Positions 3,678 to 23,223 are shown, counted from the first letter of the stretch. The stretch is DNA of 64,000 bases from a virus (IMGVR_UViG_3300037760_000179:29708-93707); one strand, 5' to 3'. Made by a program: numbers and translations. The notes: generated by a model from the letters alone, not told the origin.

Positions 3678-3679
3678 GG

Positions 3680-4228: not shown

Positions 4229-4257
4229 GCGGGTCGTCTCCTTCTCTAGTCCGGCGG

Positions 4258-5199: not shown

Positions 5200-5248
5200 T
5201 TTCGATCACTTCCTCGGATTGGGTAGGCCCGGGTGCCCGGGCATGGGA

Positions 5249-5281
5249 AGGCCCCCACCAGGTGCGCCCCGGTGGGGGCCT
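5249..5281 (-). terminator. GC-rich hairpin between decoration gene and MCP
   Basis: AGGCCCCCACC...GGTGGGGGCCT 11-bp perfect inverted repeat, followed by a short TCCC tail on the minus strand. Confidence 0.45.
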
Positions 5282-5338
5282 CGAAGCTCGAAGGAACTAT
5301 GTGGACTGTGCGCGGGTCGCTGGACGGCCAGGGGCGGG

Positions 5339-5701
5339 CTAGAACTCCATCCACTCCGCCAGCGCGGCCGCGTCGGCGGAGGTCAGGAACACGCCCAGCA
5401 GCGGGTCCGAACCGGCGTCGTCGTCGACCGTGCCCGCCGCACCGGCGGACACGCCGGCACCTGCCACGACCGCACCAGCGGTGGTGGTGATGTGGACCTT
5501 CCCCCGGGGGAAGTACGACACCAGCGCACCGATGGCGGCGTCCTGGGCAGCCACGCCGATCACGGTCACGTCGGCAGCGTCAGGGGCCGGGCCGACGGTG
5601 CCGTTGCCGGACACGACCAGCACCTGCCCGCCGGTGATCGCGGCCGAGGCGGTACCGGTGACCGTCTCGCCGTAAAGGAACTTCGGGGCGTAGTCGGCCA
5701 T
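5339..5701 (-). CDS. Head decoration/capsid cement protein (DUF2190-like)
   Basis: 120-aa Ala/Gly-rich protein; ASAAITGGQVL..IGVAAQDAA; between scaffold and MCP. Confidence 0.75.
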   Translation of the reverse strand: MADYAPKFLYGETVTGTASAAITGGQVLVVSGNGTVGPAPDAADVTVIGVAAQDAAIGALVSYFPRGKVHITTTAGAVVAGAGVSAGAAGTVDDDAGSDPLLGVFLTSADAAALAEWMEF

Positions 5702-5703
5702 CG

Positions 5704-6201
5704 CTAGTTCTCCTCCGTGTTGGCGCCGGTCAGGGCCGGCAGCTTGCTGAAGATCCGCTCGTCCTCGTCGGCCTCGGCAGCGGCCACGTCCTGCGGCTCA
5801 CCCACCTTGCCCTTCGGCTCGACCGGAACGACCAGACCCGGCTCCAGGCTGGCCAGCACCTCGCGGGCGCCGTCCGGGTCGGCCTCCCACGCCTTGGCCC
5901 AGTGGTCCCGGCGGGCGGGGGCGATACGCCCGTCGCCGACCGCGGCCTCGATGATGCGGTCCCGGTCCTCGACCCGCTGCCGCTCGGCGGCCTGCGCGCC
6001 CAGTTCGGCCTTGGACCGCAGGTCCTCCAGGGTGGCCGCCTCGATGGTGACCACCCCCTCGGGCAGGCTGGCCGCGACATTGGCCGGCTCCGGCGGCTGC
6101 TCGGCCTTGTCCGCCAGGGCGAGCACGGCAGCATTCACCTCGTCCGGGTCCGCGTCTTCGGCCAGGCCGAGCCGCTCCAGCGCCTCATTGCTCAGAGGCA
6201 T
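5704..6201 (-). CDS. Nested in-frame scaffolding protein (internal start)
   Basis: GAGGAGG RBS upstream of the internal ATG at 6201 (MPLSNEALERLGL); IEAAVGDGRIAPA helical scaffold motif, as in the Mu I/Z arrangement. Confidence 0.7.
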   Translation of the reverse strand: MPLSNEALERLGLAEDADPDEVNAAVLALADKAEQPPEPANVAASLPEGVVTIEAATLEDLRSKAELGAQAAERQRVEDRDRIIEAAVGDGRIAPARRDHWAKAWEADPDGAREVLASLEPGLVVPVEPKGKVGEPQDVAAAEADEDERIFSKLPALTGANTEEN

Positions 6202-9200: not shown

Positions 9201-11052
9201 CCGACCCGGCCGCCACCGTGACGCCCCGGGAGGTCGACCGGCGGACGGAGGAGAAGTAGAACAGGTCGGCAGCCTCGGCGACCTCCTCGACGTTGTCGAA
9301 GGCGCGGGGCAGAGGATGGTTCAGCGTGTTCGGCCACGACATTGACCAGCCGCCAACCTCGGCGCGCATCGTCAAGGCCGAGGGCGGTCCACCAGGCTCG
9401 CCGGGTGGGCCGTCGCGGGACACGACCACCGCACCGCCGGGCAGGTCCACCCGCAACGCGGTCAGGTCCGCCTCCGGGTCGGCAGTCTGGCCGAACTCGT
9501 CGAAACCCTCGTCGACGATGTTGATCGCGTAGCCGATGCGCTGCCAGTCGGCGAAGCTGTACCGCAGGTCCACCTGCCCGCCGTCGGGGGTGGGGGCACG
9601 CAGCCCCACCTGGTTGCCGTCGAGGAACACGTCCACCGGTCCGGAGGCGGTGTCGGCGCGGCCAGCGGCCGACAGCAGCACCACCGTGTCGGCGAGCTGC
9701 CGGGCCTCGCCCCGGGTCAGCCGGTGGGTGGTGTCGTCGGCGAGCAGCTCCAGCTGCCAGCCGTCGCCGTCGGGGGTGATCTGCGCGAACCCGGTCGGCG
9801 GGCTGGTGCCGGGGGTGTAGGTGGCGGCGGACACCGTGCCGTCGATTTCTTGCGGTCGCAGGTTCAGCAGCCGGCTCAGCTTCCCCGTCGCCTCCGCGTC
9901 CAGCGCCCCGGACGAGTTGGACCCGTAGGACAGGTGAACACCGTCTGGGCGGGCGTCCACGGTCAACGCCCCGGCGGCGGTTTCCAGGACGGTCGACAGG
10001 ATGCTGCCAGCCGGTCCGTCGGTCCACCGGCCGTCGCGGGGGTCACGCGGCTGGTCCGGGTCGAACGCGGCTACCGCCGTACCGGCCAGGGCGGCGAACA
10101 CCGGGCCGAGTACCTCGTCCACCACCCGCTGCAACGCGTCCCGCACCGGCTCCACGTCGTCCGGGTCCAGCTGGATCTCGGCCTGCTCCTCGTCACCTTC
10201 CCAGCCGATGGTGACCAGCCCGTTGCCGTACAACGCCAGCTCGACTTCGCTCCTCAGGCCCACCGAGTAGATCAGGGTGTTGGATGCGGCGTTGTCGGGG
10301 ATGTCCACGTCGAGCAGGTCGTCCAGCCCGTCGACCAGCTCCTGCGTCTCGTCGGTGGTGAGGGTGGTTCCGACGGTTCCGGCGGCGCCGAAGGTCAGGT
10401 CCACGTCGCCGACGTCGTCGGCGCGCAGGTGCAGGTCTCCGGAGGACGTTTCCAAGGTGACGCGTGGCAGGCCGGGACCGCCGCGGCCGCGGTTGCCGTG
10501 GGTCTGCTGGTTGTGCCCGCCGCGCAGGTGCGCCACCACGGCGGTGCCGGCGTCAGCCTGGACCCCGTACAGGGCACCCACATCCTGCAACGACTTGAGG
10601 GTGCCCACCCCGGGTGGGGTCACGCCGAGCAGCGCCACCGCGGTCAGCACGAACGGGTGGGTGTGGCCGATCTGGCAGCGGTGGTCGTAGGAGCCCTCCA
10701 CGGACCGGTCCGGGTAGGCCGATGCGGCGATGTCACCCAACCAGCCGGGCATGCCCACGAAGTCGCCGACGAGGGTGTGGCCCTGGTTCGTCAGGGCCAG
10801 GTTGTCAACCCAGCCGACGGCGGGGACACCGGTCGGGTTGCCGGCCCACAGCGGCGTCTCACCGCGGGAGTGGCCCAGCTTCAGCACCGGCCGGCGGACG
10901 GCAGGGCACTTCAGCGCGGCGGCTGCGGCTACCAGGTCGTCACGGGAGGCGGTCCACTGCCCGGTGCTGATCTTCCACTGGCCGGTGTGGACCAGCTCGA
11001 CCCGGTTCAGCCGGGCCAGCGGCGGGGCGGTGGGCACGGCGATCTCGACCAC
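5704..11052 (-). CDS. Prohead protease/scaffold polyprotein carrying 2H phosphoesterase, topoisomerase IB, ParB-like and unknown domains
   Basis: N-term Mu-I-like protease (LKLGH, PAVGWV, YPDRSVE, LTAVALLG); HVTL and HLTL 2H motifs; TopIB motifs IPPAW/GMRPG/GKKG/KDLRT/LGNT..SY; DGHHRW; C-term scaffold. Confidence 0.88.
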   Translation of the reverse strand: MVEIAVPTAPPLARLNRVELVHTGQWKISTGQWTASRDDLVAAAAALKCPAVRRPVLKLGHSRGETPLWAGNPTGVPAVGWVDNLALTNQGHTLVGDFVGMPGWLGDIAASAYPDRSVEGSYDHRCQIGHTHPFVLTAVALLGVTPPGVGTLKSLQDVGALYGVQADAGTAVVAHLRGGHNQQTHGNRGRGGPGLPRVTLETSSGDLHLRADDVGDVDLTFGAAGTVGTTLTTDETQELVDGLDDLLDVDIPDNAASNTLIYSVGLRSEVELALYGNGLVTIGWEGDEEQAEIQLDPDDVEPVRDALQRVVDEVLGPVFAALAGTAVAAFDPDQPRDPRDGRWTDGPAGSILSTVLETAAGALTVDARPDGVHLSYGSNSSGALDAEATGKLSRLLNLRPQEIDGTVSAATYTPGTSPPTGFAQITPDGDGWQLELLADDTTHRLTRGEARQLADTVVLLSAAGRADTASGPVDVFLDGNQVGLRAPTPDGGQVDLRYSFADWQRIGYAINIVDEGFDEFGQTADPEADLTALRVDLPGGAVVVSRDGPPGEPGGPPSALTMRAEVGGWSMSWPNTLNHPLPRAFDNVEEVAEAADLFYFSSVRRSTSRGVTVAAGSGSGAPPLVQVAAASDVKSGAMVALLPSPADAERLATDGGEDQDQLHVTLLFLGDADAYPPDARQAIVEAVRDLAEVIPPGEVDGMALAAFNPHRADKDTAIVLELGGDGLEDVQGMTEAAVAEAARQHGLALPEQHAPYRPHLTLVYSDDLMNVAHLADRAGPVRMDRIRVAFAGENVDTPLSGEGSDLDVDGLTDDDMPAPAVEVQAQQSRRITRSDAPLRRYWSPAGKGGLKIRWNTPGDWTRCVRQLRKYVRDPKGLCSVYHKQFTGVYPGDRRNVGKVSAAGDVAAFDPDQPRDPRDGRWVDLMHPATPDEIGSFRERFGKSIPPAWTDVHLADDLDNAPLLVTGRDGKGRRQAIYSTAHTQGQAAAKFQRVRELNEHLDKLDHAVERDAATNDDAAALLLIRRLGMRPGSTRDTGASQQAYGATTLLARHVTVEGGTARFDFIGKKGVHIQLETADPVIVSALSRRLSTRTGDDRLLDTTEAHTRDYMHSTGVPAGFLLKDLRTVHANMVALREVAKRRSVPKTKREFQQRRREVAEKVSAALGNTPTLALSSYINPTVFAGWVRDPAWVAAAAVAGEDAAVGRAEEKQLLAGWFATVSFDRPATGIPAVDPDPDDEDDDGRTVDASEGEMTLPNPNPTMVHAAAAVSVDDVRTAYYAQAPDRAWIREFHTQPRRLIVANDGDGTVARVDFDVDDDGAIRFSPPVPVRVEYVEQGDDAERVAASRMVYASAAESRPDVEAHASHNQMTHGRRYGPDGKLLRRTAQRRPGGKASGGDRAIRGAYDALARGEGASIDATELDGLLKTLTGGGDEAKRANLARLDVGGYGTLFATDKTDALDRSKMPQLGTNEEEMRPFLDLLRAQGVEVWQETIDPTTLKPSQSEISGAKTGKLYGFMAKDGWLPGGLLVTSNDGYVVDGHHRWSGAAAVRASGARPDMTVTGLVVDRPIDEVLRLAASVAKFESLDFDRTTQASAADPHTKTPAAEPGNPSTEEDDMPLSNEALERLGLAEDADPDEVNAAVLALADKAEQPPEPANVAASLPEGVVTIEAATLEDLRSKAELGAQAAERQRVEDRDRIIEAAVGDGRIAPARRDHWAKAWEADPDGAREVLASLEPGLVVPVEPKGKVGEPQDVAAAEADEDERIFSKLPALTGANTEEN
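8290..8340. repeat. 51-bp direct repeat copy 1 (encodes VAAFDPDQPRDPRDGRW)
   Basis: Identical to 10024-10074. Confidence 0.95.
10024..10074. repeat. 51-bp direct repeat copy 2
   Basis: Identical to 8290-8340; spacing 1734 bp keeps the frame. Confidence 0.95.
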
Positions 11053-11124
11053 AAGGCACCTCCAGGGGGGAGAGCGTGCCCGTAGGCGAAACCTACTGTG
11101 GGACGAAACGCAGCGGGCCGACCG

Positions 11125-11301
11125 TCAGCGGGCCGACTCCAGCGGCTCCCGATCCTCCGGGTCGTCCACCACAACCTTCTTCCACCCGACCTCAGGACCG
11201 AACCAGGTCAGTCCCGGCTCCGGCGGCGGCCCCGGAGGGGGCGAGGAGAGGTCAACCTTCTTGGCGTTCGGGTCCCTGCGGAACTCTCGGTTGGTGGCCA
11301 T
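11125..11301 (-). CDS. Small hypothetical protein (58 aa)
   Basis: Strong GAAAGAGGAGG RBS before the ATG at 11301. Confidence 0.65.
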   Translation of the reverse strand: MATNREFRRDPNAKKVDLSSPPPGPPPEPGLTWFGPEVGWKKVVVDDPEDREPLESAR

Positions 11302-11323
11302 CTGACCTCCTCTTTCATCTCCC

Positions 11324-11329
11324 ATTGTA
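11324..11329 (-). promoter_or_regulatory. Putative sigma-70 -10 element (TACAAT) for the small gene
   Basis: TACAAT ~22 nt upstream of the ATG in otherwise GC-rich DNA. Confidence 0.45.
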
Positions 11330-11354
11330 CCCCTGGGAGCGGGTCGGCGCAGGC

Positions 11355-14300
11355 TCAGGTTCCCCTGCTGGCAAAGGCGTCGAGCACATCCGCGAGGCTG
11401 CTGGCGACGTCCGCCGCCTCCCGCGAGCCGTACGGGTTGCGCTGCTTGTCCCGCACCTCGTCAACGATCGCACGCAGTTTCGCCGACGCTGCGGCGAAGT
11501 CACCGGTTGCGTCGCCCTCGGCCAGGATCTGTTCGATCCGGGGCAGGTCAACCGAGTACCGGATCCGGTCGAAGTCTCTCTGGAACCGGCTGCGCACCCC
11601 GTCGAGCGGCTGCGGGACCCGCTGCCGGTAGTCATTCTCCAGCCGCCGGGCGGCGGACAGAGCGAACCGTCGCGCCTCGTAGCCGTTGTCCCTGGCCTCG
11701 GTCAGTCCGTACTCGCGTAGCCGTGCGGCGGTAGCCAGATCACGGTCCGGGTCGCTGCCGGCCCGCAGCATTTCGATGATCTCGTCTCGGTGCTGCGGGT
11801 CCAACCCAACCAGGGACATAGCGCCGAGCCCGTCGCCCCGGTACTGGCCCTGTAGCAGCGGCTCCCGCAGCCTTTCGGGCACACTGCGGTCGACTTTCGC
11901 CTTGACCGCGAGCATGTTCCACGTACCGCTCCGGTCCAGACCGGGAGTCTGCGCACGCAGCATGCCGACCACCTCGCCGACACCAGCCCCATCGGCCCTG
12001 CGCCACTCGGCCAGGTCGATGCCGGTGTTCCACGGGATGCCCGCCCCCTCGACGGCCTCGGCGAACGCTCTGGCTTCCTTCTGGGTGCGGAAACCGCTCA
12101 GAACTGGAGCGTTGCGCATGACACGCGGGACAACGATGTCGTAGCCGCTTCTACCCTTCATCACCAGCAGTTGGCCGCTCGGGGACAGCAAGCCCCACTT
12201 GGCCCCGGCGTCATCCGGAATCCGGTCCGCGAGCGCCTCGTCGGCCTCTAGCCACGCGGTCAACTCGCCGAGCCCCTGGAATCCCTCACCGGAGTCCAGC
12301 CGGGTCTTGATGTCGGCAAGTTCGGCGGCCTTCCTCGCCGCCGCCTTCTCCGCCGGATCCGTGGGCTCCGGCGTCTCGCCCCGCCGGGCCAGTTCCTGTT
12401 TGAGGTTCCGGTCGACCCGCATGAAGCGTTCCTGCGCCTGCTCCAGGGCGTCCTGGTCGCGGAACGGCCGACCCACCCGGGCGCGCAGTGCCTCAATGTC
12501 CTGGCGGGCCTCGCGGGTTCTGGCGACGTGGCGGGTGAGGGTCCTCTCCATGCGGCCGAGGGCGTTCTGAAGATCGCCGATGACGTCGGTCGAGTTGAGG
12601 TCGCCGCGGCGAACACTGACGGACCCGGGTACGCCGACCAGCTCGACGCTGAAGCCGGTTTCTGTCCGGCCGGCCCGCAGCGGGAACCCCCGAAACTCTC
12701 CGATCACGGTGGGCGCGTCGCGTGCTGTCCGGATCTGCTTGCGCAGCTGCTGCTGCGCCTCGGTCCGGTCCCGGTAGTCGGTGCCGCCGAGGGATATCTT
12801 GAACCTCTTGCCATCGACACGCTTGGGAAGCGCTTCGTTGATCTGGGCGATGGCCTGTTCGGACCGGGCGACGTCGGCCTCACCGTCGGTGATCCGCTTA
12901 GCGATGTTGCGCTGGTCAGCCTCGTGGTTACGCCGCGCCCGCTGCAACCGCGTCAGATCGGCGCTGGCGTCGGCGTGCTCGATCAGCCACCGGTTGCCGG
13001 TCCCGAGGGCGGTGACTTCCTGCGCGGTCAGCGCGAACTCGCCGACATCGTCCACCTCGCGCACATCCAGCCGGCCCCGCATGACCTGGTTGATGAACGT
13101 GCTCTTGGTCGTGATCGCCTGCCAGATGTACGCGTCGAACGACTGCTCGGTCACGTACCGGATGACCTCTACTTCGGGGTTCTTGTTGCCCTGCCTGACG
13201 ATGCGGCCGTCGCGCTGCTGCACGTCGACCGGCCGCCACGGCGCGTCCACATGGTGCAGCGCAACCGCCCGGTCCTGCACGTTGGTCCCGACGCCCATCT
13301 TGGCAGTGCTGCCGACCAGAACAGCCACCCGGCCGTCTCGGGCAGCGGCGAACAACTCGGCCTTCTCCTGGTCGGTGTTCGCCTCGTGGATGAACCGGAC
13401 CCTGTTGCGGGGGACGCCCCGCTCGACCAGCTTGTCCCGCAGCGCCTCGTAGGCGACGAAGTCGGCCAGGCCGCTACCAGCCTCGTCCTGGTCGGACCCG
13501 CTGGTCTTCTTCCTCTTGCCGCCGGGGGTGCCGATGTCGCTGAACACCAGTTGCAGCGCACCCGGGACGCCGACGGGGTTGCCGGCTCGGTCGGTGTACA
13601 CCGCATCCTTGTTCTTCTCGTAGATGGCCGCGATCTTGCCGGCGGCGACGTCCAGCTTCGTCGGCTCGGCGGTGTCGCGTCCCACCATCTGAAGGTCCAG
13701 CGCGGCGGCCCGCCCCTCGCCGGTGATCTTCAGCATGTTGTCGCCGCCCTTTTCGGGCGGGTACGGAATCGTCTTGGCGCGGGCGACCAGCTGCTCCATG
13801 AAGTCCAGCAGTTCCTGGCTGGGCGGCACCACCACGGTCTCCGGCGCCCGGGTACGGTTGCCGTCGGCGTCGACCCGCTCCACCAGGTCGGGAGTCTTGA
13901 CGATGTCCTTCAGGTCATCGGCGGTCTTCACGTCGGAGGCGACCAGCCACGGCCGCAGGAACTCCGGCAGGTTCACGAACTTCGCGAACCGGGAGTGCTG
14001 CCGCAGCCCGCCGGTCGGCGCGACCTCCAGCCTGGTGGTCATCTCGCCGAAGTTCGCCGCCCACTCGTCGAATGTCTCGACGCCCATGTCCTCAAGCAGG
14101 TCCGGACGCAGGTAACGCATCATCGTGTACGCCTCGGACACCGAGTTGGCGATCGGTGTCGCGGTGGCCAGCGTCGCCACCCGGTCGTTACGCGAACGCA
14201 GGTGGTGCAGCTTCATGTGCAGATCGGTGGCGATCTGACTGCCGGGAATGCCCAGGCCCTGAATGCCCGACGGGGTACGGAGGTTCTTGTAGGTGTGGGC

Positions 14301-17300
14301 CTCGTCCATGAACAGGTAGTCGATGCCGGTGCTCTCGAACGTCAGCCCCGGGTCCCGGTCGGTGCTGCCGACCTGGTCCTTGATGCGCTGCTCGGCCTTC
14401 TCGACCTGCCCCTCAAGCTCCTTGACGGTCGGGTCGTTGTCCAGCGCCTCCCCTACCAGCTTCCGAAGCGCCTCGTCGCTGGCGCCTTCGTTGTCGGCGC
14501 GGACCCTCTCCACCACCTGGGCGCGGCGCCTGGCGGCCGACCGCCGCAGCGGCTCAACCTCCCCCGCCAGGTAGTCCCGCTCGGTCTCGCTGGACACCGG
14601 AATCCGCTTGAACGCGCCCTGGGTGAGGATCACCGCGTCCCAGTCGCCGGTGGCTGCCTTGGCGACGATCTCGCGCCGCTTCTCGCCGCCCTTGTCGCCC
14701 TTCAGGTCGTCGGACCCGATCGCGAGCACACGCGCCTGCGGGTAGCGCTCCAGGAACTCGCTGGTCATCTGCTCCAGCATGTGGTTGGGCACGACGATGG
14801 CGGGCTTGCGCACCAGACCCAACCGGCGCATCTCCATCGCACCGATGACCATGGTGGTGGTCTTGCCGGACCCGACCTCGTGCCACAGGCCAACCGAGGG
14901 CTCGGCGATGATCCGCCGGACAGCCGCGCTGCGGTGCGGGAAGGCGTAGAAGCCGTCCCGGTTCAACCCTGGCAACTCCAGGTCCGAACCGTCGTACGAA
15001 CGCAGCACCAACGAGTTGAACCGGCGGTTGTACGTGTCCTGAAGGTCCCTCTGCCGGGTGGGGTCTTCCCACAGCCACTCGGCGAAGCGGTCTGCCATCT
15101 CCTGGGCCTTCGCCTGCGCCTGCTCGGTCTTGTCCCGGTTGAGCTTGCCGTCCTCGGTGACCCGGATCGGCTTCTGCCCCAGGATGTCCTCGGCGATGTC
15201 GACGCCGGACATCTCCCGGATGCCCCACTCGGTGGTCGCGGCGGTGCTCCGCTTGCGGTCCGACCTGACCTTCCAGGCGTTCGCGTGCGGACGCTCAACG
15301 GTCAGCGTCGGGTCCCGCAGGATCTCCCGCAGGAACTGCTGCACGTACGCCGGTTCGATCCACCCGGCGCCCATCTTGGCGTTGATGTCAACCGGGGTCA
15401 GGTCCGGCGGCAGGACCCGCTCCAACGCCTCCACGTTCGGCGCGAACGCGTCCGGGTCCTCGGCCGCAGCCAGGCGGGCCACGTCGAGCTTCTGCCGCAC
15501 GTTGCCTGACAGGTACTCGGCCGCCGGTGCGAGCCGGCCGCTACCTGGCTCGTCGAAGACCAACGTACCGAGACGGTCCCGGGCGGTCGGCTCGTCGACG
15601 TCGAGCAGGTCAGCGATGTGGGCCAGGTCGACCTCGCCGAGCTGGTCCACGGTGATCGCCAGCGCGTCTGCGGCGCTTTCCGCGCTGGTCCTGGGGGTGC
15701 GGGGGGCGATCGTGCGACGGTGGAAGATGTCGGTCTTGGTGGCGTTGCCCGTGAGCGGGTCGTAGTTCTCCAGGGCGCGCACCGCGGCCGAGAACGGGTC
15801 GCTGCGGAATCCGCCCTGCGGTGGGCGGGTGCGGGTGACCCGCTGCTCCTCAACGTCGTCCTCGTCCTCGCCGCCCTTCGGGGCGCGCCGCTTCTCCGTG
15901 AAGCGGCTGACCGGCCCCCACTTGGCGACGTAGCCGTCGTAGATCTCGTTGAGGTCTTCGCGGAGCCGCTTCATCTGCTCGGTGTCGTCGCCGCTGGAAG
16001 CCTCGGCGTTGACCAGGTCGATGCTGGTGTCGCGCAGCCGCAACAGCTCCCGCAGCTCCTCCCGCTGTGTCGCGGGAACCTCGTGCGGCTGCTCCACCCC
16101 GCGGGTGACACGGCTGAAGGTGCCGTCCGGGAGGGCACGCAGGAACCCCTCGGGCACACGGTCCGGCCCGGTTTCGGCGAACGCGGGACGCGGGCGCTGC
16201 CCGGGGGTCTGGGTCAGCCCCATCGCCTGAGCCCGTGAGACGACCTTGTCCAGCGCCTCCCTCAGCGCCGGCCCAGCGTCCGCGTCGCCGCGAACACCGA
16301 AGGCATCCTTTGGTCCGCTGCCCATGACCATCGTCCCGAGCACCATGTCGGGGTTGTCGAGGAAGTGCCCGTTGACCGACACTTCCCGGTCGTCGTCGCC
16401 GATGGTGATCTTCCGGGCAGCCTGGAACGGCAGCCCGGCATACGGCGTGTCGGGCTCGCGGCGGCGGAACACCAGCAGGTCGGTCACCACCGCCGTGCCG
16501 GCCGCCTTCTCGTGCGCCCGCGACGGCAGCCGCACCGCCCCGACGAGGTCAGCCAGTTCGGCCATTTCCTCCCGCGCGGCCGGGCTCATCGAGTCCATCG
16601 TGTACCGGGAGGTGATGAACGCCCCGATCCCGCCCGGGCGGGTCATCCGCAGCGACTTGAGGATGAAGTGGTTGTGCATGTTGTGACGGCGGCCCGGGTT
16701 GTACTCCGGGTCAACCAGCTTGGTGTCGGAGAACGGCACGTTGCCGATGGCGGCATCGAAGGCACCGTCGCGCGTCTTGGTGTCAGTGAACGACTCTGCC
16801 CGCACGTCCGCGTTCGGGTACAGGGCGGCCGCGATCGAGGCGGTGATCGGGTCCAGTTCCACCCCGGTCACGTGGGTGTCGGGTGCGACGTCCTCCGGCA
16901 CCATCCCCATGAACGTGCCCGACCCGCTGCCCGGCTCCAGCACCTCGCCGCCGTGGAAACCGAGGCCTCGCACGGCGTCCCAAATCGCGGCGACGTAGTC
17001 CGCGTCGGTGTAGTGCCCGGTGCGGGTCGTTCGCCGCGCCGCCGCGAACTCCTCCGGCGTGAGCAGGTCCTTCAGCTCGGCCTGCGCGTCGGCGAACCTG
17101 CCACGCGGGGGTGGCTCCTTGAACACGTTGGGCAGCGAACCCCACCCGGACCAGCGGGCCAGTTTCGCCTGGTCCTCAGCCGACGCCGGCCGGCCGGATT
17201 CTTGCAGGTCCCGCAGGGTCCGCAGCGCCACAAGGTTGGCGTCCAGCCGCTTGGTCGCCGTGTTCGGCGCGAGGTCGGCCTGACTGCGCGGGCGGAAAAC

Positions 17301-20243
17301 CTGGGTGGCGTCTACTCGCCAGTCTCGCCCTCCGGCGCCTCGTCGTCCTCCGCCCGGGGCAGCATCTCCGCCAGCACTTCCCGCTCCGCGGTCGGCCGGG
17401 CCGCCATCATCCGTTCCCACCGCTCCTGGAACGGCCGGTCCGCCGGGATCGTCTCCTCCAGCGCCTCCGCCCGGTCGAGTACCCGGGTCTCGATCTGTTC
17501 CCCCAGGTTCTGGAAGAACGTCTCCCGGCTGCTCATCTGGGCGTACTCCGCCGGCCGGTACTTCTGCCAGTGCGCCATCGCCATCCGGCCGTACTGATTC
17601 ATCCGAACCCGGCCCCCCTCTGTCGACCTCTGGCAGGACGGATCGTAGCAGCGCCTGGCCGATCTCCTCCCGCGTCGCCGATTTCGACACCTCGACTCCA
17701 CGGCGGACGGCGGTGCGGCGCAGCTGGTCCCCGCTGAACCCTTCCAGCGGGTCACCGGCCTGGTTACCGGCCTTCCAGGTCTCGATGCGGGCGGCCAACC
17801 GCTCGCGGAACTGGCCACCCTTGCCGCCTAGGGTGCCTTTAGGCCAGCGTGGATGGTGGTCAGCATTCCATGCCGCCTCGACGTCGCCATCGCCGTCGAG
17901 TTCGCCAGCCACGCGGGCCAGCGCCCACAGCAAGTCCTCGATGTCATCGTCGGCTGCGCCGTCCGCACTGTCAGCCCGGCGGCGGCGGCTGATCCGCGCC
18001 CGCAACTGGCCTCGGCAGCGGCTGCGCCCCTCGCACTGCCAGTACCGGCCCACCGGGTAGTCAGCCAGCGCCCCGGCCAGCGTCTCGTACACGGTGCCGT
18101 CGATCTCGCGGCACGGACCGCACGTGTTGGTGTCGTTGCGCTCGTCCGCCACCCACACCACCGGCACGCCCAGCGCCTGTAGCCCGCGGAACACCGCCGC
18201 ACGGCCCAGATGCACCGCAGCGTGCACAGCAGCTGCAAGCTCCCCGGCGACAAACCCCCGCGCCGCGCCGCGCTGCTGGGTGGTGGCGGTGGAAGTCAGA
18301 TCCTCGGCCGCCCGGGTGACCGCGGCGGCGGCGTCGTCGGGGTCGGCGTCGGGGCCGGCTGCCAACACGGCCCGGGCAGCGGCGGACGTGTAGCCGCCGA
18401 CGATCAGGTGGGCGGTGGCGTCGGCCAGCTGGTCCAGCCGTGCCGTGTCCACGTCGGGTAGGCCCGGGTCGGCCCCCTGTGCGGCGACCGCGGACCGGGC
18501 GGTGCGGGCCGACGTGGCGGCCACGTCACGTAGCTGCGCCCGCAGCCCACCGGCCACCGCCCCGACCAGGCTGGGGCCGACCGTCAGTGTCGCCAGGGTG
18601 GCGACGGTTCCGGCGGAGGCGGCTTCGGCTGCGGCCTGGGCCAGCGGCGGCACGATGGGCGCGGCCAGCAGCGGCCAGGCGGCCAGCAACGCCAGCAGCG
18701 CGGCGGACGAGTCTTCCTCGACCTGCCGCATCTCGTCCTCGGCCTGCTGCTGCTCGTCCTGTTCGGTCTGGGCGGCGACGAACAGGTCCGGCTGCTCGTA
18801 CCGCACCGGGCCGGGCGGTGCGGCAGCCTGCACCGGGCCGGATGGCGCCGGCTTGGGCTCAGGCCCGGGCGGGGTCGGCCCGGGTGCGGGACTGCCTCCG
18901 GCCGGCGGGTCCTGGCCGGGCACCTGCACCGGCCGACTGCGGTCCGGCGCCGGCAGCCGGTACTCTTTGCGGACCCACTCCTCCAGCCCCGGATCGGCTG
19001 ACAGGGCACCGGAGGCCAGCAGCAGCTGCAACGACTCGGCGGTCACCTCACGGCGTGAGGCGATCCCCGACGCCCACACCTTCGGCACCGGCTCGTCTTC
19101 GTCGTCCCAGTTCCACGCGACCAGCCGGGCGGCGACCTGCCGGGTCACCACGTCGGCGATCTCCTCAGCGATGGACTCCAGGGCCAGCGTCCAAGCGTCG
19201 ATGAACGCGACGCCCAGCGCCCTGTTGCCGGTGGCGGTCTGCCCGAGGTCGAGGTGGCCCATCAGCGCCATGGTGGACATCTGCTGGTCCAGCCACTTCA
19301 CGAAGCCCATCGTGTCCGGGGTGCCACCGGACAGGCCCACCAGCTCCAGCCACGCACCGGGTGGCATCGCCGCGCCGGCGGTGTCCCCGGCCCGGGCGGC
19401 AGAGGCCATCTGCTGCGCCTGGGTCATCTGCGCCGGGGTCGGTGACATCGACTCCGGCCAGCGGACCACCGGCACACCCATGCCGAACCGGCGGGAGGAG
19501 GTGGCGAGGACCCGCATCATCTCCCGCTTGAACAGCCACGGCGCGAACGCCGGCCTAAGCAGCGAGGTGCCGAACCAGGACGCGCCCTCACGTTCGTGGC
19601 AGTACCACGCCAGCCGGTCCGCGCCGATCTCCGGCTTGTCGAACGGCCCGGCTGCCATCTCCTGGGAGATGCCGGCGAACGTGCCCCGCCGGGGCTCCAC
19701 GTGGATCTGGGTGATGGTGTGCTGCGGCCGGTCCCACAGGCCGACCAGGTGCGCCCGCCCGTCGCCGCCGATCTTGGCCTCAAGCTCGAACCCGGCATGC
19801 CCGAACGGGAGCATCGTCAACGCCGAGCGGAGGTGGTCGTGCCACGACAGGCCGTGGGCCGTTCCCACACCCGGGTTGTCGCGGCCGATCACCGGCAGGT
19901 CCAGGTCGTGGGCCACCAGGTCGACCACCTCGCGGCGGCAGCCGGTGGCGTCGATCTGCCAGGTGGCACGCAGCAGCATGTGGCAGTAGCCGGCCAGCAC
20001 CGCCGCCAGCTTCGCATCCCGCCGCATCGCGTTGTAGGTGGTCACGGACTGGGGCCACGCCACGTCCGGTACGGTCTCCAGGGCGTCGACCAGCAGCCCC
20101 TCGTACGCCGAGTCCTCGACGTACCCGCGCAGCGACGTGGGCGGCTTGAACACCTTGGCGCCGTTGGCGTGGGCGGCCATGATGTCCGCCGGGTGCGCCA
20201 TCACCGTGGCGCCGTTGACCGGTCCGTCTGGCAGCGGGTCCAC
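11355..20243 (-). CDS. Portal (DUF935-like) - MuF-like - DarB-like N6-adenine MTase/SNF2 helicase fusion, 2962 aa
   Basis: Portal N-term (GTSLLRPAF.PW, RRFGMGVP); MuF Cys motifs (NDTNTCGPCREIDG, CEGRSRCRG); MTase EPGSGSG and GNVPF; helicase HEVGSGKT, DEAH, TATP, QRDGRIVRQGN; no internal stop. Confidence 0.9.
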   Translation of the reverse strand: MDPLPDGPVNGATVMAHPADIMAAHANGAKVFKPPTSLRGYVEDSAYEGLLVDALETVPDVAWPQSVTTYNAMRRDAKLAAVLAGYCHMLLRATWQIDATGCRREVVDLVAHDLDLPVIGRDNPGVGTAHGLSWHDHLRSALTMLPFGHAGFELEAKIGGDGRAHLVGLWDRPQHTITQIHVEPRRGTFAGISQEMAAGPFDKPEIGADRLAWYCHEREGASWFGTSLLRPAFAPWLFKREMMRVLATSSRRFGMGVPVVRWPESMSPTPAQMTQAQQMASAARAGDTAGAAMPPGAWLELVGLSGGTPDTMGFVKWLDQQMSTMALMGHLDLGQTATGNRALGVAFIDAWTLALESIAEEIADVVTRQVAARLVAWNWDDEDEPVPKVWASGIASRREVTAESLQLLLASGALSADPGLEEWVRKEYRLPAPDRSRPVQVPGQDPPAGGSPAPGPTPPGPEPKPAPSGPVQAAAPPGPVRYEQPDLFVAAQTEQDEQQQAEDEMRQVEEDSSAALLALLAAWPLLAAPIVPPLAQAAAEAASAGTVATLATLTVGPSLVGAVAGGLRAQLRDVAATSARTARSAVAAQGADPGLPDVDTARLDQLADATAHLIVGGYTSAAARAVLAAGPDADPDDAAAAVTRAAEDLTSTATTQQRGAARGFVAGELAAAVHAAVHLGRAAVFRGLQALGVPVVWVADERNDTNTCGPCREIDGTVYETLAGALADYPVGRYWQCEGRSRCRGQLRARISRRRRADSADGAADDDIEDLLWALARVAGELDGDGDVEAAWNADHHPRWPKGTLGGKGGQFRERLAARIETWKAGNQAGDPLEGFSGDQLRRTAVRRGVEVSKSATREEIGQALLRSVLPEVDRGGPGSDESVRPDGDGALAEVPAGGVRPDEQPGDVLPEPGGTDRDPGTRPGGGAGGDDPGGPAVPGAVGTDDGGPADRGAGSAGGDAAPGGGRRGAGGRDWRVDATQVFRPRSQADLAPNTATKRLDANLVALRTLRDLQESGRPASAEDQAKLARWSGWGSLPNVFKEPPPRGRFADAQAELKDLLTPEEFAAARRTTRTGHYTDADYVAAIWDAVRGLGFHGGEVLEPGSGSGTFMGMVPEDVAPDTHVTGVELDPITASIAAALYPNADVRAESFTDTKTRDGAFDAAIGNVPFSDTKLVDPEYNPGRRHNMHNHFILKSLRMTRPGGIGAFITSRYTMDSMSPAAREEMAELADLVGAVRLPSRAHEKAAGTAVVTDLLVFRRREPDTPYAGLPFQAARKITIGDDDREVSVNGHFLDNPDMVLGTMVMGSGPKDAFGVRGDADAGPALREALDKVVSRAQAMGLTQTPGQRPRPAFAETGPDRVPEGFLRALPDGTFSRVTRGVEQPHEVPATQREELRELLRLRDTSIDLVNAEASSGDDTEQMKRLREDLNEIYDGYVAKWGPVSRFTEKRRAPKGGEDEDDVEEQRVTRTRPPQGGFRSDPFSAAVRALENYDPLTGNATKTDIFHRRTIAPRTPRTSAESAADALAITVDQLGEVDLAHIADLLDVDEPTARDRLGTLVFDEPGSGRLAPAAEYLSGNVRQKLDVARLAAAEDPDAFAPNVEALERVLPPDLTPVDINAKMGAGWIEPAYVQQFLREILRDPTLTVERPHANAWKVRSDRKRSTAATTEWGIREMSGVDIAEDILGQKPIRVTEDGKLNRDKTEQAQAKAQEMADRFAEWLWEDPTRQRDLQDTYNRRFNSLVLRSYDGSDLELPGLNRDGFYAFPHRSAAVRRIIAEPSVGLWHEVGSGKTTTMVIGAMEMRRLGLVRKPAIVVPNHMLEQMTSEFLERYPQARVLAIGSDDLKGDKGGEKRREIVAKAATGDWDAVILTQGAFKRIPVSSETERDYLAGEVEPLRRSAARRRAQVVERVRADNEGASDEALRKLVGEALDNDPTVKELEGQVEKAEQRIKDQVGSTDRDPGLTFESTGIDYLFMDEAHTYKNLRTPSGIQGLGIPGSQIATDLHMKLHHLRSRNDRVATLATATPIANSVSEAYTMMRYLRPDLLEDMGVETFDEWAANFGEMTTRLEVAPTGGLRQHSRFAKFVNLPEFLRPWLVASDVKTADDLKDIVKTPDLVERVDADGNRTRAPETVVVPPSQELLDFMEQLVARAKTIPYPPEKGGDNMLKITGEGRAAALDLQMVGRDTAEPTKLDVAAGKIAAIYEKNKDAVYTDRAGNPVGVPGALQLVFSDIGTPGGKRKKTSGSDQDEAGSGLADFVAYEALRDKLVERGVPRNRVRFIHEANTDQEKAELFAAARDGRVAVLVGSTAKMGVGTNVQDRAVALHHVDAPWRPVDVQQRDGRIVRQGNKNPEVEVIRYVTEQSFDAYIWQAITTKSTFINQVMRGRLDVREVDDVGEFALTAQEVTALGTGNRWLIEHADASADLTRLQRARRNHEADQRNIAKRITDGEADVARSEQAIAQINEALPKRVDGKRFKISLGGTDYRDRTEAQQQLRKQIRTARDAPTVIGEFRGFPLRAGRTETGFSVELVGVPGSVSVRRGDLNSTDVIGDLQNALGRMERTLTRHVARTREARQDIEALRARVGRPFRDQDALEQAQERFMRVDRNLKQELARRGETPEPTDPAEKAAARKAAELADIKTRLDSGEGFQGLGELTAWLEADEALADRIPDDAGAKWGLLSPSGQLLVMKGRSGYDIVVPRVMRNAPVLSGFRTQKEARAFAEAVEGAGIPWNTGIDLAEWRRADGAGVGEVVGMLRAQTPGLDRSGTWNMLAVKAKVDRSVPERLREPLLQGQYRGDGLGAMSLVGLDPQHRDEIIEMLRAGSDPDRDLATAARLREYGLTEARDNGYEARRFALSAARRLENDYRQRVPQPLDGVRSRFQRDFDRIRYSVDLPRIEQILAEGDATGDFAAASAKLRAIVDEVRDKQRNPYGSREAADVASSLADVLDAFASRGT
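17312..17602 (-). CDS. Nested out-of-frame gene, TnpV-like helical protein (96 aa)
   Basis: GAGGGGG RBS, ATG at 17602, high GC3 codon usage. MNQYGRMAMAHWQKYRPAEY...FFQNLGEQI...AEREVLAEML resembles TnpV-like proteins. Confidence 0.75.
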   Translation of the reverse strand: MNQYGRMAMAHWQKYRPAEYAQMSSRETFFQNLGEQIETRVLDRAEALEETIPADRPFQERWERMMAARPTAEREVLAEMLPRAEDDEAPEGETGE

Positions 20244-20673: not shown

Positions 20674-23223
20674 CTAGAACGACACCGTCTCCAGGTCCAC
20701 CTGGCCGTTGCCGCCGAACGGGTCCGGGTCGGGGTCCGGCGCACCTCCTACGGTGGCGTGCCCGGCCCGGTTCAGCAGCGGCGCCCACTTGGTGATCGAC
20801 ACCCGCGTCGCCAGCGACCCGACGTCCACGGTGTCGTCGTGCGCCGCCGCCGGGAACGCCGCGTGCTCATCGATCCACGTCGGCAGCCAGTGAGCACCGG
20901 CCGGCAGCCACACCCGCCCACCCGAGCACCACGCCGAGTACGGCAACGCCCGGGACAGCTTGTCCTGCTCGGCCTGAACCGGCGAGACCGGCACGCCACT
21001 CTGGGTGGCCTCCTTCACCAACGTGAACCCGTACTGGGACGCCTCCGCAAACAGGGTGTCCAGTTGCCACCGCTCCACCAGCGGCCGGGCCTGCGCGAAG
21101 TGCTGCTCCTCGCCGATCTGCGCCCGGGTCACGTCCAGCAACACCAGGTCCCCGGCCAGCGTCCGCGCCCATGCGGCGATCACCGTGTAGTCGGCCGAAG
21201 TGCGGGTGGACGCGGCAAGGTCGACCGTGCCGAACCGCCACGAGTCCCGCAGGTCCGCAACCCGGCCACCGAGGTAGATCCGGTGCTCTCCGGCGGGGGT
21301 CCAGTACCGCCACCAGAGGCGCTTGAACAGGTTCCCCTCGGCGGGTGCCGGCCGCTGCTGGAACAGAGCCGCCCACACGTACTCGCCGACGTCTTTGCGG
21401 CGTTCTTCCCAGTCCTTCGCGGTCCGGCCGCGGGCGGAGGTCATGTACTCGCCCTCGGCGCGACCGAGCAGGTCCGTTTTCGGGTTCTCGCACTGGGCGG
21501 GGATCGAGACGACCCGCCACTTTCCGCCGGCGGCCTTGTCGCCCTCGGTCTCCAGCAGCTTGCCAGCGAGGTCGGATTCGTGCCAGCGTGTCGTCATCAG
21601 CAGCACTTTGCTGTTCGGGCCGAGCCGGGGAATGGCCACGGCCTGCCAGAACCGCCACGCGCGCTCGCGGTATTTGACCGAATTCGCCTGTTCGAGGTCT
21701 TTGTGAGGATCGTCTATAATGAGCAGATCCACAGCCTTGCCAGATAGACTGCCAGCGATCCCTACGCATGAGACACTCCCATGTGTACCTCTGACCCGCC
21801 AGTAACCTGCGGCTGGGCGCTCATAGAGCCGCAGCCCAAGGTCGATCTGATCCTCGGCCCCACTGAACGTCTCCACGTCCAGCCGCAGCTGCCAGCCCCA
21901 CCGTCGCGCTATGTCATCGGAGTACGACACTATGGCAACGCGAGTCCCGGCGTCCTGCGTGAGGGTCCATAGGGGAAAGAAGCGGGAGCACCGCTCGCTA
22001 TTGTGGGTCGGCAGCATCCCTTCGCCGACCAGGTACAGCCCGTCATCGGTGTCGACCGTGATGCAGCGGCCGACGTTCGGGGCCTCTGCCGCGATGGCGG
22101 TTATCGAGGTGCGCTTCCGGGCGCCTCCCAGCCGTACCGCAGCCTTGCGCTCCAGTCGTGCCGGCCCTTGGTCGTGCGGAGTGAAGGTGACCCGCCACAT
22201 CGCGAGCTTCCCCTGAATCCCCGACGACGAGAGCTTCGGAGGCGTCGGACGGTGCACATGGGCTCGGTAGCCGAGCGTACGGATCAACTCGGCGGTACTG
22301 CGGACCAGGCCCTCGTTGGCGTTGTCGAAACTGACCTGCCCACTCGCGGACACATGCCCGTCCGTGTCGATCAGACCGGCCAGCAGCGCCCTACGCTGCC
22401 GAGTGGAGGCCCGCAGGTACGCCGCCGGGATGTGCTTGTTGCCGAAAACGCCGGCCTCACGCAGGTCACGCTGCATTTGGCCGCTGTAGTACGTGGTGAT
22501 GATCCCGGTGGTTGGATGGACGCAGCGCGCGGTCGCGGTGTAGGCCATCTCGTAGCAGTCGTCCGGGTGGTGCGTGATGGCGGGCTTGGTCGTGCTGCCA
22601 TCGCCGAGCCACACGCCAAGCGTGTACGGCTCGACGGGAAGGTCGACATCCGGGCAGTCAAGGGCCTCACGCAGCGGCAGGAAGAAGCGGTACCAGTGGC
22701 CGCGCTTTCCCGGCGGCCCCGACGATAGAGGGACGGCGGCGAGCTGCCTGGTCTCCATCGTGAGCCAGCGTCCACGCTTACGATCCCAGACCGTCCACTC
22801 ATGCGCAGGGTGGACCAGGATTGATGTGTGGTCGCTGAAGTGGACGCGCAGCGAGGCCATCGCGGGCTCGTGGACCTCCGCCACCTTGACCTGCCGCCCA
22901 CTGGGGTGGAACACGACCGACCCAGGACGCAAGTCACCGTGCCGGACCCACCCATCAGGCGTTGGTACGCGGGTGTCGTCCGCTACCAGCTTGCCTTCCT
23001 GAGGTGGAGCGAAGATCATCAATCTCTTGTCGCGCCCGTCGGCGAGATCCAGCAACGCCTGGTCGACGAGCCGCAGCGCCGGGGTCTGGATCATCCGGTT
23101 GTCAAGCTCAACCGCCATGTCCCCGGGCGCGGCCCAGCGGCGCGGCTTGGACTCGAACGAGCGGGCGGCATACTCCCAAGGTGACAGCTCGGGGCGCCTG
23201 TCCATCATCACCATGCGAACCAC
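20674..23223 (-). CDS. terL: Terminase large subunit containing an intein
   Basis: Walker A PPQEGK/S, Walker B LLIIDDP, TRWH, ALFQQRP, nuclease DLAAS, FP..HDDTVD; exact start uncertain. Confidence 0.95.
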   Translation of the reverse strand: MVRMVMMDRRPELSPWEYAARSFESKPRRWAAPGDMAVELDNRMIQTPALRLVDQALLDLADGRDKRLMIFAPPQEGKLVADDTRVPTPDGWVRHGDLRPGSVVFHPSGRQVKVAEVHEPAMASLRVHFSDHTSILVHPAHEWTVWDRKRGRWLTMETRQLAAVPLSSGPPGKRGHWYRFFLPLREALDCPDVDLPVEPYTLGVWLGDGSTTKPAITHHPDDCYEMAYTATARCVHPTTGIITTYYSGQMQRDLREAGVFGNKHIPAAYLRASTRQRRALLAGLIDTDGHVSASGQVSFDNANEGLVRSTAELIRTLGYRAHVHRPTPPKLSSSGIQGKLAMWRVTFTPHDQGPARLERKAAVRLGGARKRTSITAIAAEAPNVGRCITVDTDDGLYLVGEGMLPTHNSERCSRFFPLWTLTQDAGTRVAIVSYSDDIARRWGWQLRLDVETFSGAEDQIDLGLRLYERPAAGYWRVRGTHGSVSCVGIAGSLSGKAVDLLIIDDPHKDLEQANSVKYRERAWRFWQAVAIPRLGPNSKVLLMTTRWHESDLAGKLLETEGDKAAGGKWRVVSIPAQCENPKTDLLGRAEGEYMTSARGRTAKDWEERRKDVGEYVWAALFQQRPAPAEGNLFKRLWWRYWTPAGEHRIYLGGRVADLRDSWRFGTVDLAASTRTSADYTVIAAWARTLAGDLVLLDVTRAQIGEEQHFAQARPLVERWQLDTLFAEASQYGFTLVKEATQSGVPVSPVQAEQDKLSRALPYSAWCSGGRVWLPAGAHWLPTWIDEHAAFPAAAHDDTVDVGSLATRVSITKWAPLLNRAGHATVGGAPDPDPDPFGGNGQVDLETVSF
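22000..22989 (-). mobile_element. Class 3 intein with LAGLIDADG homing endonuclease (330 aa)
   Basis: Inserted between K and S of Walker A; block B HPAHEW, F-block GRCITVD, terminal THN/S; LGVWLGDG and LLAGLIDTDG. Confidence 0.9.

What the first reader, a model, noticed from the sequence alone, without database searches (positions are those of the whole stretch)
17312..17602. Fully nested gene in the +1 frame inside the portal polyprotein
The nested frame has an RBS, typical high-GC3 codons and a folded-looking TnpV-like product. The polyprotein frame over the same DNA is a Gly/Pro/Asp low-complexity linker with atypical codons. Inference: a plasmid/ICE-type cassette (TnpV-like gene + DarB-like gene) was captured, and the portal ORF reads through the small gene out of frame, keeping both products. 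The small protein may be a DarB partner or regulator.
Basis: partly seen in the sequence, partly recalled or inferred. Interest (0 to 1): 0.75.

Follow-up and report, generated by a model that had tools for sequence, protein, structure and literature searches.

The report
Small gene nested in portal–DarB gene
A complete 96-codon gene for a small acidic helical (TnpV-like) protein lies one base out of frame inside the floppy linker of this phage's 2,962-codon portal/DarB-like virion protein gene, and the same gene-within-a-gene layout is the usual state of this cassette in actinobacterial plasmids and in several cultured phages, not a one-off.

Summary
Observation confirmed. The minus-strand ORF 17602..17312 is intact and lies in the +1 frame of the 2,962-codon ORF 20243..11355. 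This is the only stretch of that ORF where codon periodicity flips. Host codons ending in A/T are 55% here against 10% elsewhere; for the nested frame the figure is 6%.

The product folds confidently (pLDDT 85, four helices, acidic tail). It belongs to a family of about 1,200 clusters that is TnpV-like only below Pfam's threshold.

Three relatives (60-64% identical) keep the same layout: nested start, Shine-Dalgarno-like motif, nested stop 3-15 nt before the DarB-like N-terminal domain, and no start codon for that domain. Pairwise dN/dS is 0.45-0.77 in the nested frame and 1.2-1.5 in the host frame.

The host frame staying open is compositional in this 71% GC DNA and is no evidence by itself.

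The phage did not invent the read-through. In plasmid and MAG cassettes the darB-like ORF already starts upstream of the tnpV-like gene, with a leader under purifying selection, and reads through it. Klebsiella phage SopranoGao, Vibrio phage VvAW1 and Bcep22 show the same layout.

This scan has reported the same nesting on at least eight other genomes. I found no paper describing it.

The parts
11355..20243 (-). Host ORF: 2,962-codon polyvalent virion protein (portal, unassigned region, linker, DarB-like methylase-helicase)
   Evidence: One open frame. Pfam Portal_Mu at aa 69-430, E 1.4e-43. The C-terminal part hits phrog_10089 'DarB-like antirestriction', E 1.7e-108. It lies between the large terminase gene (20674..23223) and the prohead-protease polyprotein gene (5704..11052).
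18954..20039 (-). Portal domain of the host ORF (aa 69-430)
   Evidence: Pfam PF06074 Portal_Mu, 150 bits.
17312..17602 (-). Nested tnpV-like gene (96 aa, pI 4.6) in the +1 frame of the host ORF. The same DNA encodes host linker aa 881-978.
   Evidence: Searches show the periodicity switch. Homologues are 59-85% identical. Nested-frame dN/dS is 0.45-0.77 against 1.16-1.50 in the host frame. AlphaFold2 gives pLDDT 85.
17613..17620 (-). Shine-Dalgarno-like GAGGGGGG, 10 nt before the nested ATG, embedded in host coding sequence
   Evidence: Read from the sequence. Across 21 loci, GGAG/GAGG lies at -17..-5 of the nested start in 17, against an 11% background (binomial p 2e-13; the loci are not fully independent). 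In the window itself GAGG sits at -18..-15, just outside that counting window, so it scored only under the looser motif set.
17265..17297 (-). First conserved motif (F-R-P-x-x-Q-x-D-L-A-P) of the DarB-like N-terminal domain (probably LPD36 of Iyer et al. 2017). It starts 15 nt after the nested stop, in the host frame, and has no start codon of its own.
   Evidence: The motif is invariant in 8 aligned relatives. LPD36 is described in PMC5512222; the equivalence is my inference from position and the W-S-G-W-G motif.
16590..16943 (-). Adenine methyltransferase core of the DarB-like module (aa 1101-1218)
   Evidence: Pfam Eco57I and Methyltransf_25, both below threshold. An N-V-P-F motif is visible. 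tblastn to P1/P7 darB gives 27% identity, E 4e-11.
13188..14900 (-). SNF2/SF2 helicase of the DarB-like module (aa 1782-2352)
   Evidence: Pfam SNF2-rel_dom, ResIII and Helicase_C; PHROG hits.

Best explanation
This is a true same-strand gene-within-a-gene, and two proteins are made from 17602..17312. Ribosomes that start at the portal start codon translate one 2,962-residue polyvalent virion protein. Its residues 881-978 form a Gly/Asp/Pro-rich disordered tether, read from the -1 frame of an older gene. Other ribosomes start at an internal SD plus ATG (17602) and make a 96-residue acidic four-helix TnpV-like protein, which ends 15 nt before the DarB-like N-terminal domain begins. The nested frame carries the selected protein information; the host frame only has to stay open and flexible. 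The layout is inherited: in plasmid cassettes the darB-like gene already starts upstream of the tnpV-like gene and reads through it. The phage lineage replaced or extended that short leader with a portal module here, and with other modules in relatives. That would put the anti-restriction enzyme in the capsid for injection. The following is inferred, not shown. The small protein may be a dedicated partner (chaperone, assembly factor or activity regulator) of the LPD36-methylase-helicase module. Being made from the same mRNA right next to where that module emerges could keep the two genetically and spatially coupled.
For: Nested frame is the selected one. Periodicity runs P->N->P, switching exactly at the nested start and stop, in the window and in L001, L010 and L011, and in plasmids L006, L025 and L028. 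Nested-frame dN/dS is 0.45-0.77 against 1.16-1.50 in the host frame; the plasmid/MAG group gives 0.21-0.73 against 0.96-3.4. All 12 close homologues are intact, with the same start (M-N-Q-Y-G) and the same end. Columns conserved in the plasmid/MAG group are enriched among invariant columns of the fused group (odds ratio 3.0, p 0.016). An SD-like motif precedes the nested start in 17 of 21 loci against an 11% background. The fold is confident. The family has 1,202 clusters, almost all small proteins. Host frame must be translated through it. No stop ends the portal part. L001, L010 and L011 have no ATG/GTG/TTG in the host frame inside or just after the nested ORF, and the window has only one poorly placed GTG. 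So the DarB module has no start of its own. Host-frame GC3 is high right up to the nested ATG and again right after the stop. In the plasmid/MAG cassettes the host-frame leader upstream of tnpV has dN/dS 0.18-0.37, against 0.97 or more in the other frames. Generality. The same relative frame and the same position before the DarB N-terminal domain occur in 54-plasmid-type cassettes. They also occur in Klebsiella phage SopranoGao, Vibrio phage VvAW1 (50% GC, where openness is not compositional) and Bcep22.
Against: There is no expression, ribosome or peptide evidence for either product. Nested-frame dN/dS in the phage-type group (0.45-0.77) is only moderately below 1 and higher than in the DarB domain (0.10-0.24). 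By simulation, the nested frame stays open by chance in 17-64% of trials per pairwise divergence, so intactness alone is weak evidence. The 8 protein-only homologues were found as called genes, which is an ascertainment bias. The TnpV assignment is below Pfam's threshold. No structural relative was found and no partner test could be run, so the functional part is inference from linkage only.
Confidence: 0.7

Rival explanations
1. Relic: the tnpV-like ORF was functional in the plasmid ancestor but is no longer expressed in the phage lineage. It looks intact only because too little time has passed and because frameshifts are forbidden by the host frame.
For: dN/dS in the phage-type group (0.45-0.77) is higher than in the plasmid/MAG group (0.21-0.73). 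The chance of staying open is 0.17-0.64 per pairwise divergence. Indels that would break the nested frame would also break the DarB fusion.
Against: All 3 relatives found at DNA level, without gene-calling bias, keep the start codon, the SD-like motif and an open frame at 60-64% identity. The host frame evolves with dN/dS above 1, so the constraint comes from the nested frame. Residues that mark the family, and residues specific to the phage-type group, stay fixed. Nested-frame GC3 is still about 0.95.
Confidence: 0.15
2. Programmed frameshifting: the TnpV-like segment is an in-line domain, reached by a +1 shift from the host frame and/or left by a -1 shift into the DarB domain, rather than a separately initiated protein.
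For: The nested stop lies only 3-18 nt before the DarB N-terminal motif, in the -1 frame, in most loci. That is the geometry a -1 shift would need.
Against: I saw no X-XXY-YYZ slippery heptamer, and no motif shared across groups, at the 3' ends (inspected by eye). The nested ORF always has its own ATG/GTG with an SD-like motif. Family members are overwhelmingly stand-alone small proteins that begin at profile position 1. The host-frame leader upstream is itself under selection. RNA folding around the nested start shows no unusual structure (z 0.57).
Confidence: 0.05
3. Artefact: assembly or sequencing error, or three separate genes (portal gene, tnpV-like gene, darB-like gene) that merely look fused because the -1 frame is stop-free in high-GC DNA.
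For: In this composition the host frame is expected to be open over the small gene. One relative (L002) does have separate genes, with an ATG 4 nt after the tnpV-like stop.
Against: Four independent assemblies show the same continuous frame. The portal part has no stop and the DarB part has no start. Host-frame periodicity abuts the nested gene on both sides. The same layout occurs in finished plasmid and cultured-phage genomes.
Confidence: 0.03

Closest known systems
Embedded same-strand gene pairs of phages and bacteria: lambda Rz1 inside Rz; comS inside srfAB of Bacillus subtilis (both from my own knowledge, not tested here)
   Same: A whole small gene, with its own start and SD, lies in the +1 frame of a larger gene on the same strand.
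   Different: Here the host is a giant polyvalent virion or conjugation protein, and the overlap falls on a disordered linker that carries little information. The small gene appears to be the older partner. The pair is spread over plasmids and phages of several phyla.
Polyvalent proteins with the LPD36 / adenine methylase / SWI2-SNF2 module (Iyer et al. 2017, PMC5512222); archetype DarB of phage P1
   Same: A portal fused to a DarB-type methylase-helicase in a head-gene context. The domain order matches. The C-terminal part hits phrog_10089 at E 1.7e-108, and the methylase region is 27% identical to P1 darB.
   Different: That paper mentions neither tnpV nor an overlapping gene. P1 darB aligns only from the methylase onward, not over the N-terminal domain.
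TnpV of Tn4451-type transposons (Pfam PF14198)
   Same: Size, helical character and colinear weak profile matches: residues 2-80 against profile positions 24-110. RefSeq names some plasmid homologues 'TnpV protein'.
   Different: All scores are below the gathering threshold (best 5e-5; window 16.9 bits against 27). No NCBIfam model matches. The function of TnpV itself is unknown, so the name explains nothing.

Membership tests
Embedded (fully nested, same-strand, out-of-frame) gene pair | The small ORF lies wholly inside the larger ORF, on the same strand, in a different frame | tested here: met
   17602..17312 lies inside 20243..11355, offset +1.
Embedded (fully nested, same-strand, out-of-frame) gene pair | The nested frame is under protein-level selection | tested here: met
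   dN/dS is 0.45-0.77 in the nested frame against 1.16-1.50 in the host frame. Family residues are conserved. Nested-frame GC3 is 0.95.
Embedded (fully nested, same-strand, out-of-frame) gene pair | The host frame is really translated across the overlap | tested here: met
   This is an inference from anatomy. There is no stop before the overlap and no start after it, in 4 assemblies. The upstream host-frame leader in plasmid cassettes is under selection. Openness alone is compositional.
Embedded (fully nested, same-strand, out-of-frame) gene pair | Both products detected experimentally | not testable with these tools
No proteomics data are available.
TnpV (Pfam PF14198) | Score at or above the gathering threshold (27 bits) | tested here: not met
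   P0001 scores 16.9 bits, E 0.0064. Of 81 family members, 18 match at E <= 0.01 (best 5e-5), all below the cut-off, with no rival family. Best called TnpV-like.
TnpV (Pfam PF14198) | Small helical protein encoded on mobile elements | tested here: met
   Four helices at pLDDT 85. Found on 54 plasmids, in phages and in MAG islands.
Polyvalent protein with DarB-type dyad (Iyer et al. 2017) | Several effector or structural domains in one polypeptide, in a phage packaging-gene context | tested here: met
   Portal_Mu, methylase and SNF2 helicase in one ORF, lying between the large terminase gene and the protease/scaffold/capsid genes.
Polyvalent protein with DarB-type dyad (Iyer et al. 2017) | LPD36 N-terminal domain followed by EcoKI/TaqI-like adenine methylase and SF2 helicase | tested here: inconclusive
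   The methylase and helicase were found. I had no LPD36 profile. The position, the helical N-terminal domain and the W-S-G-W-G motif fit the description in PMC5512222.
MuF (SPP1 gp7 / Mu gp30) head protein domain | A match to a MuF profile between the portal and the linker | tested here: inconclusive
   Pfam (E <= 0.1) and PHROGs (E <= 0.001) give no MuF hit for aa 430-880. The first readers' MuF call rests on Cys motifs only.

The most novel reading that the evidence does not exclude
The tnpV-like small protein is an obligate, co-translationally supplied partner (chaperone, packaging or secretion adaptor, or activity brake) of the LPD36-methylase-helicase anti-restriction module. Its gene has been kept inside the linker just upstream of that module across phages and conjugative elements of several phyla because nesting enforces co-inheritance and synthesis from the same mRNA. 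This would be an ancient, widespread and so far unannotated gene-within-a-gene, and it would define how DarB-type proteins are handled before delivery.
Probability: 0.3. Interest if true: 0.8.

Novelty: new variant of a known kind. Interest (0 to 1): 0.6.

Why it matters
Conserved, fully nested genes are rare in bacteria and phages, and gene callers remove them by design. Here the small gene is missing or the big gene is mis-started in many finished records: PGAP cuts off the conserved N-terminus of the helicase in the Kocuria record, while other records get a single giant CDS. The finding gives a simple rule for correct annotation of DarB-like polyvalent genes. It also shows how a disordered tether can be obtained for free by reading an older gene out of frame. 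And it points to an unstudied small protein that always travels with a major anti-restriction enzyme of phages and plasmids. Finally, it is a cautionary case: in high-GC DNA an open overlapping frame proves nothing, and start/stop anatomy and frame-specific substitution patterns are needed.

Tried and rejected
The alignments A2 and A4 are ready for it.

**Searches with no useful result**
- tblastn of P0001 against 50,697 phage records found no match. The phage examples were reached through the DarB domain instead.
- NCBIfam gave no model for six family members, and PHROGs gave none for P0001.
- Foldseek against the PDB found nothing at E <= 0.001. VIA-align wide gave a best Z of 5.7, generic helical hits only, including lambda GamS at Z 5.0. 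No fold assignment follows.
- The promoter and terminator scan of 16900-18100 found none. RNA folding around the nested start is not unusual (z 0.57).
- I inspected the nested 3' ends by eye for slippery heptamers and saw none.
- The Streptococcus phage phi-SgaBSJ27_rum locus (L034) had no nested ORF of 60 aa or more before the matched domain by my criteria.

**Readings rejected**
- The longer nested-frame ORF from the GTG at 17818 (168 aa) is rejected as the real start. Periodicity stays host-type until about 17602, and all relatives start at M-N-Q-Y-G.
- MuF was not confirmed.
Full report
**What is there**

The window is part of a 93.7-kb, 99%-complete IMG/VR virus record with about 71% GC. 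Its head-gene block lies on the minus strand:
- large terminase, 20674..23223
- a 2,962-codon ORF, 20243..11355
- a 1,782-codon prohead-protease polyprotein gene, 11052..5704
- scaffold and major capsid genes

The 2,962-codon ORF starts with a Mu-type portal (Pfam E 1.4e-43). It ends with a DarB-like adenine methylase plus SNF2 helicase (phrog_10089, E 1.7e-108; 27% identity to P1/P7 darB over the methylase). This is a 'polyvalent protein' in the sense of Iyer et al. 2017 (PMC5512222). A MuF domain was not confirmed.

A 96-codon ORF runs from the ATG at 17602 to the TAG at 17312. It lies one base downstream of the host frame. Codon-position GC switches exactly at its ends. Inside it the host frame has GC1 0.95 and GC3 0.40, so the nested frame has GC3 of about 0.95.

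These are the only windows in the 8.9-kb ORF with host GC3 below 0.65. Host codons end in A/T at 55% here against 10.3% elsewhere, and nested codons at 6%. The host peptide across the overlap (aa 881-978) is 30% Gly, 15% Asp and 13% Pro. The nested product has pI 4.6. AlphaFold2 predicts four helices and a disordered acidic tail at mean pLDDT 85.

**What chance explains and what it does not**

Only 2 of 96 nested third positions are T, so the host frame is almost stop-proof here. The same frame is open across the small gene in nearly all 22 related loci. In L002 it even runs for 458 meaningless codons. Mutation simulations keep it open in 47-91% of trials. Host-frame openness is therefore no evidence.

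The evidence that the host frame is read comes from anatomy:
- The portal part has no stop.
- The conserved first motif of the DarB-like domain (F-R-P-x-x-Q-x-D-L-A-P) begins 15 nt after the nested stop and has no start codon of its own.
- In the three close relatives (L001, L010, L011) there is no ATG/GTG/TTG in the host frame anywhere in or just after the small gene.
- Host-type periodicity abuts the nested gene on both sides.

**Relatives**

Eight called proteins are 59-85% identical and share the start M-N-Q-Y-G; all but one also share the end E-T-G-E/Q.

Three DNA-level relatives have the same P->N->P layout and an SD-like motif before the nested start:
- L001, a Micromonosporaceae MAG contig
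- L010, an IMG/VR contig
- L011, an 81-kb metagenome contig

Their N-terminal modules differ. L001 has no portal similarity. L010 has an HExxH-containing region. L011 has a NUDIX domain in an ORF of about 5,000 codons that ends in a Zeta-toxin domain.

Pairwise Nei-Gojobori dN/dS is 0.45-0.77 in the nested frame and 1.16-1.50 in the host frame. The flanking DarB domain gives 0.10-0.24. So the small protein is the constrained reading, and the host linker merely tolerates it.

**The wider family**

A profile of 21 sequences finds 1,202 clusters at 50% identity (754 at E <= 1e-10), nearly all 90-220-aa proteins that start at profile position 1. Of 81 members, 18 hit Pfam TnpV at E <= 0.01 (best 5e-5), none reaches the cut-off, and no other family competes. 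NCBIfam has no model. 'TnpV-like' is fair; membership is not shown.

Fifty-four actinobacterial plasmids carry homologues at 31-42% identity, several named 'TnpV protein'. The next gene is a large helicase or giant protein.

In the plasmid and MAG cassettes the DarB N-terminal motif again starts within a few nt of the tnpV-like stop: 6-36 nt after it in most, overlapping it by 12 nt in L017. It is again in the -1 frame and again has no nearby start.

Upstream of the tnpV-like start, the host frame encodes a conserved leader that begins at an aligned ATG/GTG and contains motifs such as M-L-P-W-F-E-D-P. That leader has host-frame GC3 of 0.8-0.97. Its dN/dS is 0.18-0.37 in the host frame against 0.97 or more in the other two frames. 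Over the small gene the pattern inverts: nested 0.21-0.73, host 0.96-3.4.

So the darB-like ORF already starts before, and reads through, the tnpV-like gene in plasmids. Independent long read-throughs also exist. One is a 2,502-codon 'helicase' CDS on a Micromonospora plasmid (L006). Another is a 5,846-codon CDS on a Streptomyces plasmid (L025). Both show P->N->P periodicity.

Separate-gene versions also occur: L002 has an ATG 4 nt after the stop, and L026 has a closed host frame. Across 21 loci an SD core lies at -17..-5 of the nested start in 17, against an 11% background (p 2e-13; the loci are not fully independent).

**Beyond high-GC DNA**

A lead came from earlier notes of this scan. I followed it by searching phage records with the DarB N-terminal 520 aa, which gave 113 records. 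I then inspected four loci:
- Klebsiella phage SopranoGao has a 108-codon ORF in the same relative frame just before the matched domain (TnpV E 0.0035).
- Vibrio phage VvAW1 (50% GC) has a 109-codon one (hhalign against my alignment, E 5e-5).
- Bcep22 has a 107-codon one (TnpV E 0.045).
- A Streptococcus phage showed none by my criteria.

All three lie inside annotated giant CDSs and are not annotated themselves. This partly confirms the earlier notes and shows that the layout is not just a high-GC curiosity.

**Mechanism**

Shown by sequence: two frames carry different constraints; the host frame is continuous; the nested frame has its own start signals.

Inferred: both frames are translated from one mRNA, the host frame giving a disordered tether and the nested frame a small acidic helical protein.

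More speculative: the small protein works with the LPD36-methylase-helicase module, next to which it is always encoded, and nesting keeps the two co-inherited and co-synthesised. Fusion to the portal would place the anti-restriction enzyme in the capsid, as P1 DarB is a head component (PMC5512222).

Rivals are a silent relic (0.15), programmed frameshifting (0.05) and an artefact (0.03). Their evidence is listed in the Rival explanations section.

**Novelty**

Iyer et al. 2017 do not mention tnpV or an overlapping gene. My full-text searches for TnpV with helicase and methylase, DarB-like with overlapping gene, and polyvalent protein with nested found nothing relevant.

This scan has reported the same nesting on at least eight other genomes. 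What this window adds:
- an actinobacterial phage version with a portal fusion
- the plasmid-leader evidence that nesting predates the fusion
- the compositional caveat

No fold relative was found.

Noticed in passing
window 5704-11052 (minus): A 1,782-codon ORF has prohead-protease PHROG hits at both ends (phrog_3894 at aa 8-177, phrog_2976 at aa 1587-1760). In between are 'RNA ligase'-labelled and unknown families. This is a second cargo-carrying head polyprotein. It has no window with host GC3 below 0.65, so it shows no sign of a nested gene.
   Followed up: partly
window 21664-21873 (minus, inside the large terminase gene): There is a mild dip of host-frame GC3 to 0.50-0.62 over about 200 nt. 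The terminase PHROG match comes in two stretches. This could be an insertion or a diverged segment.
   Followed up: no
L011:~500-15565: An ORF of about 5,000 codons carries a NUDIX domain upstream, the nested tnpV-like gene (8001..8276), a DarB-like methylase-helicase, a SAP domain and a C-terminal Zeta-toxin/AAA_33 domain. The first ~160 codons of the open frame look non-coding.
   Followed up: partly
L010:3498-6236: The DarB-like module seems to lack the methylase. After about 35 residues of the N-terminal domain, the sequence continues with helicase C-terminal sequence. An HExxH (zincin-like) motif lies upstream in the same ORF.
   Followed up: partly
L003, L004, L015, L018, L021 (about 80 codons before the tnpV-like start); L007, L013, L014, L017: The host-frame leaders of plasmid/MAG darB-like genes are conserved. 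One type contains G-E-P-L-F-G-E-D-W-W and M-L-P-W-F-E-D-P. Another starts M-A-R-R and contains G-Q-L-S-F-[DE]-D-L, which resembles a sliding-clamp-binding Q-L-[SD]-L-F motif (resemblance from my own knowledge, untested).
   Followed up: partly
L003:6042, L004:6042, L012:713, L013:120, L014:392, L015:450, L018:5357, L021:584: A host-frame ATG/GTG lies 41 nt after the tnpV-like start in 8 loci. It is built from the nested Arg/Gln14-Trp15 codons and is preceded in most of them by AGGAG (AGGAA in two) from the nested Gln-Glu codons. In L004 the nested Arg is the rare codon AGA, which makes an ATG. It may be an alternative internal start for the darB-like protein. The phage-type group has Tyr at this position and no such codon.
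   Followed up: no
L007:6435-6513; L028:2869-2893; L027:2050-2185: Public annotations start the helicase gene after its conserved F-x-P-x-x-Q-x-D-L-A-P motif, which truncates it. Other records (L006, L008, L025) annotate one long CDS over the small gene and omit the small gene.
   Followed up: partly
L026:2495-2983; L030:2501-2770: tnpV-like genes also sit, as separate genes, directly in front of giant proteins of 9,968 and 8,752 codons on Streptomyces and Actinacidiphila linear plasmids. Those proteins do not begin with the DarB N-terminal motif. The link may therefore be to polyvalent proteins in general.
   Followed up: no
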